Source of the DNA: Desulfovibrionaceae bacterium | GTDB taxonomy: Bacteria > Desulfobacterota > Desulfovibrionia > Desulfovibrionales > Desulfovibrionaceae | Direction of reading: 5' to 3' | DNA: 64,000 nucleotides | Assembly: GCA_028689675.1 (NCBI GenBank) | Contig: JAQVCS010000012.1 | Span: 8,382-72,381, forward strand | In this document: in pieces, positions 55,218 to 55,541 of the stretch | How the letters are laid out: the number at the start of each line of letters is the position of its first letter | Numbering within the stretch: position 1 is the stretch's first letter | Translations under genes and position numbers: made by a program | Notes under the pieces: model-generated | What the model saw: the letters and a program-made list of their open reading frames with translations, nothing else | What the model was told of the DNA's origin: nothing | Databases searched by the model: none

Positions 55218-55541
55218 CTAATGGCTGCCGCACGAACTGCAGGAAGAGCCGCACGAACTGCCGCCAGCAGAGGCCAACGGGACTTCAGGTTCAAGGGTAA
55301 AGCCCATGTAGGTCAAATCAATGGTTACTGATTTAATCTGCGCAAGCAGCGATTTTTCCACAGCGAAGGTAAAGCCACCTTCTTCAAAAGCCATGTCGTT
55401 TTCATTAGGCTCATCCAGAGCCAGTGCCAAGCGCGGCCCGCTTCAGCCGCCGGGTGCCAGATAAACACGAATGCCGCCGCGTTCTTTGCCCTCGAAGTAG
55501 GCTTCGAGTTCTTTGCGGGCGGAGTCTGATAAATGAATCAT
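55218..55541 (-). CDS. HesB/IscA-like protein with an in-frame TGA (55443-55445) at the conserved Cys position: candidate selenoprotein, 107 aa
   Basis: The ATG at 55541 has GGAGG 5 nt upstream. The translation is MIHLSDSARKELEAYFEGKERGGIRVYLAPGG-U-SGPRLALALDEPNEND... The GG(U)SG context matches the GCSG Cys35 motif of IscA/HesB. The track ORF 55218..55430 is only the part 3' of the TGA. Confidence 0.75.
55408..55443 (-). other. Candidate SECIS region immediately 3' of the UGA
   Basis: There are two short stem-loops on the mRNA strand. One is AAGCG-GGCCG-CGCUU (55443-55429). The other is GGCUC-UGGAU-GAGCC (55422-55408), with a G-containing apical loop 26 nt after the UGA. Confidence 0.35.

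What the first reader, a model, noticed from the sequence alone, without database searches (positions are those of the whole stretch)
55218..55541. In-frame TGA at the active-site Cys position of a HesB/IscA-like gene: selenocysteine candidate
The ORF track reports only 55218..55430, which starts at a TTG. The frame continues upstream through a single TGA (55443-55445) to an ATG at 55541 with GGAGG 5 nt upstream. Read through, it gives a 107-aa HesB/IscA-like protein: MIHLSDSARKELEAYFEGKERGGIRVYLAPGG-U-SGPRLALALDEPNENDMAFEEGGFTFAVEK... The TGA falls where IscA/HesB proteins have the first cluster-ligand Cys (GCSG motif, Cys35 in E. coli IscA). A HesB-like selenoprotein family is established in Deltaproteobacteria, so recoding is the most economical explanation. 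Two short GC-rich hairpins follow the UGA; the second (55422-55408) has a G-containing apical loop 26 nt downstream. A C-terminal tail CGSSCSSCG replaces the canonical CGC.
Basis: partly seen in the sequence, partly recalled or inferred. Interest (0 to 1): 0.6.

Follow-up and report, generated by a model that had tools for sequence, protein, structure and literature searches.

The report
Known HesB/IscA-type selenoprotein gene
This is a real gene for a small iron-sulfur-carrier-like protein in which an internal UGA "stop" is read as selenocysteine with the help of a conserved RNA hairpin, but it belongs to a selenoprotein family that is already catalogued in Desulfovibrio relatives, so it is ordinary.

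Summary
On the minus strand, ATG 55541 to TAG 55218 is one 107-codon frame with a single in-frame TGA at 55445-55443.

- **Family:** the product passes the curated NCBIfam model NF038090 'IscA_HesB_Se' (104.7 bits, cut-off 85). It folds like IscA/SufA.
- **Position of the TGA:** codon 33 aligns with Cys35 of E. coli IscA.
- **Machinery:** the genome has selA, selB, selD (itself with a TGA) and tRNA-Sec.
- **Conservation:** 36 of 41 related genomes carry a copy with a TGA. In all 76 copies I read, the TGA is in this same column. Paralogs have Cys there.
- **SECIS:** It is present in 76 of 76 Sec copies, with compensatory changes. It is absent from 63 of 66 Cys copies that encode the same LALDEP peptide. 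It meets all four published bacterial SECIS criteria.
- **First hairpin:** this is a codon by-product, equally paired in Sec and Cys copies.
- **Cys-rich tail:** it is typical of the whole family.

HesB-like selenoproteins (motif UxGP) were already listed for Desulfovibrio in 2006, so the finding is already known and of low interest. Selenium incorporation and the protein's function were not shown here.

The parts
55218..55541 (-). Complete coding sequence of the Sec-containing IscA/HesB family protein. It has 107 codons plus a TAG stop, and the ATG start is at 55541-55539.
   Evidence: Translation. NF038090 scores 104.7 bits against a cut-off of 85. PF01521 scores 33.5 bits against 26.3. Orthologs start at the same Met.
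55546..55550 (-). Shine-Dalgarno sequence GGAGG, 4 nt before the ATG.
   Evidence: Read directly from the sequence.
55443..55445 (-). In-frame UGA, codon 33, read as selenocysteine. This is the position of the first cluster-ligand Cys.
   Evidence: It aligns with Cys35 of E. coli IscA 1r94 and with the GGCSG Cys of 1nwb and 2apn. TGA is in the same column in 76 orthologs and Cys is there in 66 paralogs.
55408..55422 (-). Bacterial SECIS hairpin. It has a 5-bp stem GGCUC/GAGCC (7 bp in many orthologs) and a loop UGGAU, and the spacer after the UGA is 25 nt. It lies inside the codons for L-A-L-D-E-P.
   Evidence: The free energy is -7.6 to -8.8 kcal/mol. It is present in 22/22 and 54/54 Sec copies, against 0/16 and 3/50 Cys copies. 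92.2% of cells are paired, against 16-52% when the partner is slid, and 3 pairs change on both sides. It meets the bSECIS criteria quoted.
55228..55253 (-). Gly/Ser/Cys-rich C-terminal tail (residues 97-104, C-GSS-C-SS-C). It is predicted to be disordered and takes the place of the canonical CGC ligand motif.
   Evidence: In the family alignment C97 is at least 90% conserved and C104 is invariant. pLDDT is below 50 for residues 93-103.
55169..55197 (-). Intrinsic terminator: GGGGCGGTC-GTATTA-GGCCGCCCC followed by TTTTT. It separates the gene from mfd.
   Evidence: 9 pairs, 8 of them G-C, then a T run.

Best explanation
The minus-strand gene 55541..55218 encodes a 107-residue selenoprotein of the IscA/HesB (A-type Fe-S carrier) fold, in subfamily NF038090.

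**How it is read.** The ribosome starts at AUG 55541, which follows a GGAGG. At UGA codon 33 it does not terminate. The hairpin GGCUC-UGGAU-GAGCC, 25 nt downstream, is inferred to recruit SelB.GTP.Sec-tRNA(Sec), which inserts selenocysteine. Translation then continues to UAG 55220-55218, and a strong terminator follows.

**What is shown.** The frame, the family, the fold, the UGA-to-Cys correspondence, the SECIS-type hairpin specific to UGA copies, and the presence of selA, selB, selC and selD.

**What is inferred.**
- Actual Se incorporation.
- SelB binding to the hairpin.
- The biochemical role. Most likely Sec33 and the cysteines of the flexible C-terminal tail (C97, C101, C104) bind and hand over an Fe-S cluster, or another metal or chalcogen species, at a dimer interface, as Cys35/Cys99/Cys101 do in IscA.
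For: - **Sequence and family:**
- **Fold:** the AlphaFold model has mean pLDDT 85.9. Its only significant PDB matches are IscA (1x0g, 1r94, 1s98), SufA (2d2a), Aq_1857, HI1723 and related chains, at probability 1.00 and TM 0.54-0.68.
- **Ligand position:** U33 aligns with Cys35 of E. coli IscA.
- **Machinery:**
- **Conservation:** the family is above cut-off in 40 of 41 related genomes, and 36 of them have a copy with exactly one TGA. The TGA is in the same column in all 76 Sec copies I read.
- **Hairpin:** it is present in 76/76 Sec copies and in 3/66 Cys copies.
- **Compensatory changes:** G-C to U-A occurs together with Pro to Gln in L037, L039 and L045. U-A to C-G occurs together with Glu to Gly in L041 and L055.
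- **bSECIS criteria:** met.
- **TGA is a normal stop here:** it ends 101 of 710 long open frames in this genome.
- **Synteny:** the pyrR | hesB(Sec) | mfd arrangement is shared with D. desulfuricans, D. piger and a same-genus MAG.
- **Literature:** HesB-like (UxGP) is an established selenoprotein family. It is listed for D. vulgaris and D. desulfuricans (PMC1794560; PMC13188914) and was confirmed by 75Se labelling in Methanococcus maripaludis (PMC11097638).
Against: - There is no direct evidence of selenium in this protein.
- Rfam has no matching SECIS model.
- The stem in this genome is the short 5-bp version, at -7.6 kcal/mol, which is just at the published threshold.
- Whole-segment folding energy does not separate Sec from Cys copies (p = 0.87) and is not unusual against shuffles (z = -1.05). 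The case rests on the position-specific hairpin.
- No sigma-70 consensus promoter was found.
- The function of the family is unknown even where Sec is proven.
Confidence: 0.95

Rival explanations
1. The gene is a pseudogene. The TGA is a nonsense mutation or an assembly error in an IscA/HesB gene, and no full-length protein is made.
For: Gene callers split the frame. A Cys paralog elsewhere in the genome (C12, 96.4 bits) could cover the function. Read-level support for the TGA could not be checked.
Against: The same TGA occurs in the same column in 76 orthologs across many genera, with the downstream frame intact and conserved. A hairpin that covaries is maintained only after TGA. The start, SD and terminator are all intact.
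Confidence: 0.02
2. The UGA is read through, but not as selenocysteine. This could be near-cognate Trp or Cys insertion, or a general reassignment of TGA in this organism.
For: Some database entries of this family show W at the site (P0019). These come from translations that read TGA as Trp.
Against: TGA ends 101 of 710 long open frames in this genome, so it is not a general sense codon. Homologs have Cys, never Trp, at the site. The complete Sec machinery and a SECIS-type hairpin are present.
Confidence: 0.02
3. There are two independent small genes, 41 aa (55568..55443) and 70 aa (55430..55218), and the hairpin is only an effect of the LALDEP codons.
For: Both pieces appear as ORFs under table 11.
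Against: The two pieces together match one family model end to end (profile positions 1-100 of 101) and one IscA fold. Cys paralogs that encode the same LALDEP peptide do not form the hairpin. The 70-aa piece has no SD of its own and starts at a TTG inside a conserved strand.
Confidence: 0.01

Closest known systems
NCBIfam NF038090 'IscA_HesB_Se' (IscA/HesB family protein), the Desulfovibrionaceae form of the 'HesB-like' selenoprotein listed by Zhang et al. 2006 for D. vulgaris and D. desulfuricans
   Same: It scores above the curated cut-off over the full length. It has the U-x-G-P motif at the first ligand position, the same Gly/Ser/Cys-rich tail, the same SECIS hairpin, and the same pyrR-hesB-mfd locus as D. 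desulfuricans and D. piger.
   Different: There is nothing essential. In this genome the tandem Cys paralog that most relatives carry next to the Sec copy is missing from the locus and sits on another contig. The SECIS stem is the 5-bp version rather than the 7-bp one.
TIGR01911 'HesB_rel_seleno', the HesB-like selenoprotein of Methanococcus and others (Sec shown by 75Se labelling in M. maripaludis)
   Same: It has the IscA-like fold, Sec at the same ligand position and the UxGP motif, and its function is unknown.
   Different: The window protein scores only 38.5 bits against the 66.35 cut-off, so it belongs to a sister subfamily. The archaeal genes use a 3'-UTR SECIS, whereas here the SECIS is inside the coding sequence.
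A-type Fe-S cluster carriers IscA / SufA / ErpA (PF01521; PDB 1x0g, 1r94, 1s98, 2d2a)
   Same: It has the same fold and a Pfam match above threshold. The first ligand position is conserved as Sec.
   Different: Sec stands in place of Cys35. The C-terminal CGC motif is replaced by a longer tail, C-x3-C-x2-C-G-S-H. The protein is below the cut-offs of TIGR00049, IscA, SufA and ErpA.
E. coli fdhF-type bacterial SECIS / bSECIS consensus (Zhang and Gladyshev model, as summarised in PMC13188914)
   Same: It is a stem-loop inside the ORF just downstream of the UGA. G is in the second loop position and is followed by G. The loop is 5 nt, the stem 5-7 bp, the spacing 25 nt and the free energy at or below -7.5 kcal/mol.
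   Different: It is shorter than the 40-nt fdhF element and shares no sequence with it. SelB binding was not tested.

Membership tests
NCBIfam NF038090 IscA_HesB_Se | Whole-protein HMM score at or above the curated cut-off (85 bits) | tested here: met
   104.7 bits, profile positions 1-100 of 101. The six-frame genome search gave 97.6 bits with one TGA inside.
HesB-like selenoprotein (literature family) | Sec in a U-x-G-P motif at the position where homologs have Cys | tested here: met
   GG-U-S-G-P-R in the window. Cys paralogs have GGCSGPR. The motif is as listed in PMC13188914.
TIGR01911 HesB_rel_seleno | HMM score at or above 66.35 bits | tested here: not met
   38.5 bits. I do not file the protein under this subfamily.
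Bacterial Sec-decoding gene | selA, selB, selD and tRNA-Sec present in the genome | tested here: met
   all above cut-off; tRNA-SeC with anticodon tca at C11:146643-146736.
Bacterial Sec-decoding gene | bSECIS: 3-9 nt loop, 4-16 bp stem, G in the first two loop positions, 16-37 nt from the UGA, MFE at or below -7.5 kcal/mol | tested here: met
   Loop UGGAU (5 nt), stem 5 bp (7 bp in many orthologs), spacer 25 nt, -7.6 to -8.8 kcal/mol. The hairpin is specific to Sec copies and shows covariation.
Bacterial Sec-decoding gene | Selenium actually incorporated (75Se labelling or MS) | not testable with these tools
   This needs an experiment. The only experimental precedent found is for the archaeal HesB-like protein.
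A-type Fe-S carrier (IscA/SufA/ErpA, PF01521) | Pfam gathering score and IscA fold | tested here: met
   PF01521 scores 33.5 bits against 26.3. Foldseek top hits are 1x0g, 1r94, 2d2a and 1s98 at probability 1.00.
A-type Fe-S carrier (IscA/SufA/ErpA, PF01521) | Three invariant cluster ligands C-x(n)-C-G-C | tested here: not met
   The first ligand is Sec. The C-terminal motif is C97-x3-C101-x2-C104, not CGC. The protein is below the cut-offs of TIGR00049 (42.7 against 58.8), IscA, SufA and ErpA.
A-type Fe-S carrier (IscA/SufA/ErpA, PF01521) | Binds and transfers an Fe-S cluster | not testable with these tools
   This needs a biochemical assay.

The most novel reading that the evidence does not exclude
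The Sec copy and its Cys paralog would form a selenium-responsive isoform pair, like the Sec/Cys hydrogenase isoforms of Methanococcus. The two are tandem at pyrR-mfd in most Desulfovibrionaceae. In the Sec form a selenolate (Sec33) would directly ligate an Fe-S cluster or metal, together with the flexible Cys tail. That would give a carrier with altered cluster-transfer chemistry. In this genome the Cys partner has been moved next to a type III chaperone cassette, which uncouples the pair.
Probability: 0.2. Interest if true: 0.4.

Novelty: already known. Interest (0 to 1): 0.1.

Why it matters
The main value is for annotation. Standard ORF calling cuts this gene into a 41-aa piece and a 70-aa piece, so the true 107-aa selenoprotein is lost unless TGA recoding is considered. 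Biologically it adds one more ortholog to a catalogued selenoprotein family whose function is still unknown.

The comparison of Sec and Cys paralogs that encode the same LALDEP peptide is a clean natural control. It shows that the hairpin is selected as RNA, down to amino-acid changes that restore base pairs. This illustrates known principles and does not extend them.

Tried and rejected
- **Rfam scans.** Neither the gathering-threshold scan of the whole window nor the permissive scan of 55150-55650 gave a SECIS or other meaningful RNA family. The weak DapZ and suhB hits only reflect the terminator.
- **Whole-segment folding energy.** The 66-nt stretch has z = -1.05 against shuffles. The MFE of the 60 nt after the codon does not differ between Sec and Cys copies (p = 0.87). 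Only the position-specific pairing test discriminates between them.
GCGGCU...GGCCGC spans the UGA. It is paired 4.4 of 6 in Sec copies and 4.25 of 6 in Cys copies. I rejected it as a signal, because it follows from the GGN-GGN and GGN-CCN codons.
- **TIGR01911 membership.** Rejected on score.
- **General TGA reassignment.** Rejected.
- **Promoter.** The sigma-70 consensus scan found none.
- **Earlier notes on other genomes.** Notes on IscA-fold selenoproteins elsewhere concern another family, NF041239. That family did not appear in the scan of this protein.

Full report
**Observation.** The minus strand of 55541..55218 reads as one frame of 107 codons. It has a single internal TGA at 55445-55443 (codon 33) and ends at TAG 55220-55218. 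GGAGG sits at 55550-55546, 4 nt before the ATG. A strong intrinsic terminator follows the stop: a stem at 55197-55174 with 9 pairs, then a T run. The gene lies between pyrR (55590..56210, +, divergent) and mfd (55130..51669, -).

**What the protein is.**
- With Cys standing in for Sec, the product scores 104.7 bits on NCBIfam NF038090 'IscA_HesB_Se' (cut-off 85), over profile positions 1-100 of 101.
- It is below the cut-off for TIGR01911 (38.5 against 66.35), TIGR00049, IscA, SufA and ErpA.
- It is above the Pfam threshold for PF01521.
- phmmer against PDB sequences aligns residue 33 with Cys35 of E. coli IscA (1r94) and with the GGCSG cysteine of Aquifex Aq_1857 and H. influenzae HI1723.
- An AlphaFold model built from a 70-sequence alignment is confident for residues 1-90 and disordered in the tail, with mean pLDDT 85.9.
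- Its only significant PDB neighbours are A-type carriers: IscA 1x0g with its [2Fe-2S] cluster, 1r94, 1s98, SufA 2d2a, 1nwb and 2apn.
- The family alignment shows that the Gly/Ser/Cys-rich tail is a family trait. C97 is at least 90% conserved, C104 is invariant, and another Cys lies between them.

**Is the UGA decoded as Sec?**
- *Machinery.* The genome has 2.36 Mb in 26 contigs and is 99.5% complete. It is an uncultured Desulfovibrionaceae, judged from the named relatives. It has selA (596.8 bits), selB (340.8 bits) and selD (307.6 bits, itself with one in-frame TGA), and a tRNA-Sec with anticodon tca.
- *TGA as a stop.* TGA is otherwise an ordinary stop. It ends 101 of 710 open frames of 400 codons or more.
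- *Conservation.* A six-frame search of 41 related genomes found the family above cut-off in 40. Of these, 36 genomes have a copy with exactly one TGA, and 26 copies have no stop.
- *Same column.* In the loci I read, the TGA is always in the same column (GG-U-[SAR]GP[RK]L or G-U-GGPRL). The stop-free paralogs have Cys there. A second sample of named genomes gave 54 Sec and 50 Cys copies with the same pattern. It includes D. desulfuricans, D. piger, Bilophila wadsworthia, Nitratidesulfovibrio and Lawsonia-like MAGs.

**The SECIS.**
- *Sec against Cys copies.* It is present with at least 5 contiguous pairs in 22/22 and 54/54 Sec copies, and many of these extend it to 7 bp. Among Cys copies, 16/16 and 47/50 have at most 2 contiguous pairs at the same place, although they encode the same L-A-L-D-E-P peptide. 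The same-genus relative is the cleanest control. Its tandem Sec and Cys copies encode the identical peptide LALALDEPNEQDKTFEEGGF, yet only the Sec copy keeps the hairpin.
- *Covariation.* G-C changes to U-A together with Pro to Gln in three genomes. U-A changes to C-G together with Glu to Gly in two genomes. G-C changes to G-U together with Pro to Ser in several.
- *Formal count.* 92.2% of cells are paired, against 16-52% when the 3' partner is slid by 1-3 columns. Three pairs change on both sides. The covariation score is 0.171 against 0.088 in shuffles, reached by 0 of 500 shuffles.
- *Published criteria.* The element meets all four bSECIS constraints: loop 3-9 nt, stem 4-16 bp, G in the first two loop positions followed by G or U, 16-37 nt from the UGA, and MFE at or below -7.5 kcal/mol (PMC13188914). 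The loop is 5 nt (U-G-G-A-U), the stem 5 bp, the spacer 25 nt, and the energy -7.6 to -8.8 kcal/mol.
It pairs equally in Sec copies (4.4 of 6) and Cys copies (4.25 of 6).

**How it most likely works.** SelB carrying Sec-tRNA(Sec) is inferred to bind the hairpin as the ribosome reaches UGA-33 and to insert Sec. The full-length protein is an IscA-fold module. Sec33 and the cysteines of the flexible tail are inferred to hold an Fe-S cluster, or another metal or chalcogen, at a dimer interface. The decoding step is supported by strong comparative evidence but was not observed directly. The biochemical role is inference by homology. Even for the experimentally confirmed archaeal HesB-like selenoprotein the function is unknown (PMC11097638).

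**Comparison with what is known.** HesB-like proteins are among the classical prokaryotic selenoprotein families. Zhang et al. 2006 list 11 HesB-like selenoproteins and include the family in the selenoproteomes of Desulfovibrio vulgaris and D. desulfuricans (PMC1794560). A 2026 review lists the family with the motif UxGP (PMC13188914). NCBI has a dedicated model, NF038090, which this protein passes. The D. desulfuricans and D. piger orthologs lie at the same pyrR-hesB-mfd locus. The finding is therefore a correct identification of an already known kind of gene, and only the host genome is new.

**Limits.**
- Rfam holds no model that matches this SECIS.
- No consensus promoter was found.

**Verdict.** The element is already known. 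Interest is low (0.1), and confidence that this is a Sec-decoding gene is 0.95.

Noticed in passing
G000 contig C7, about 48756-49058 (-) = L017 1429..1731 (-): This is a second Sec candidate of the A-type-carrier superfamily in the same genome. It is a 100-aa ORF with an in-frame TGA in 'KVGGG-U-HAKIV', and it scores 137.1 bits on NF033940 ErpA_rel (cut-off 65). It lies directly downstream of a radical-SAM gene of the glycyl-radical-enzyme activase type (PF04055 plus 4Fe-4S domains). I did not analyse its SECIS.
   Followed up: partly
G000 contig C13:94514-95446 (-) = L010: selD (selenophosphate synthetase) itself contains one in-frame TGA, so it is probably a selenoprotein too. This is common in Sec-using bacteria.
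   Followed up: no
G000 contig C12:107120-107416 (-) = L015 1465..1797; window 59452-59805 (-): The Cys paralog (NF038090, 97.2 bits) is not tandem to the Sec copy, unlike in relatives, where the order is pyrR | Sec | Cys | mfd. Instead it lies next to a CesT-family chaperone gene (PF05932, 71 bits) and a SpoIIE-type phosphatase gene. The third, degenerate paralog in the window (54.4 bits, Ser-Thr at the ligand site) also adjoins a chaperone/effector cassette. HesB-like copies therefore seem to have been carried along with those duplicated cassettes.
   Followed up: partly
L050, L052, L053 (Desulfovibrio MAGs), Cys copies about 340 nt upstream of the Sec copies: Three Cys-containing paralogs ('LALDAPG') keep a 5-bp hairpin GGCGC-UGGAU-GCGCC exactly at the SECIS position. 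This may be a fossil SECIS from a Sec-to-Cys conversion, of the kind Zhang et al. 2006 describe for a Desulfitobacterium HesB-like gene. It may also be chance.
   Followed up: no
Protein P0019: At least one public database entry of this family carries Trp at the Sec column (GGWSGPR). This is presumably an artefact of translating a metagenome contig with a TGA=Trp code.
   Followed up: no
whole genome G000: TGA is the least used stop codon. It ends 14% of open frames of 400 codons or more, against 57% for TAA and 28% for TAG, in a genome of 52% G+C.
   Followed up: no
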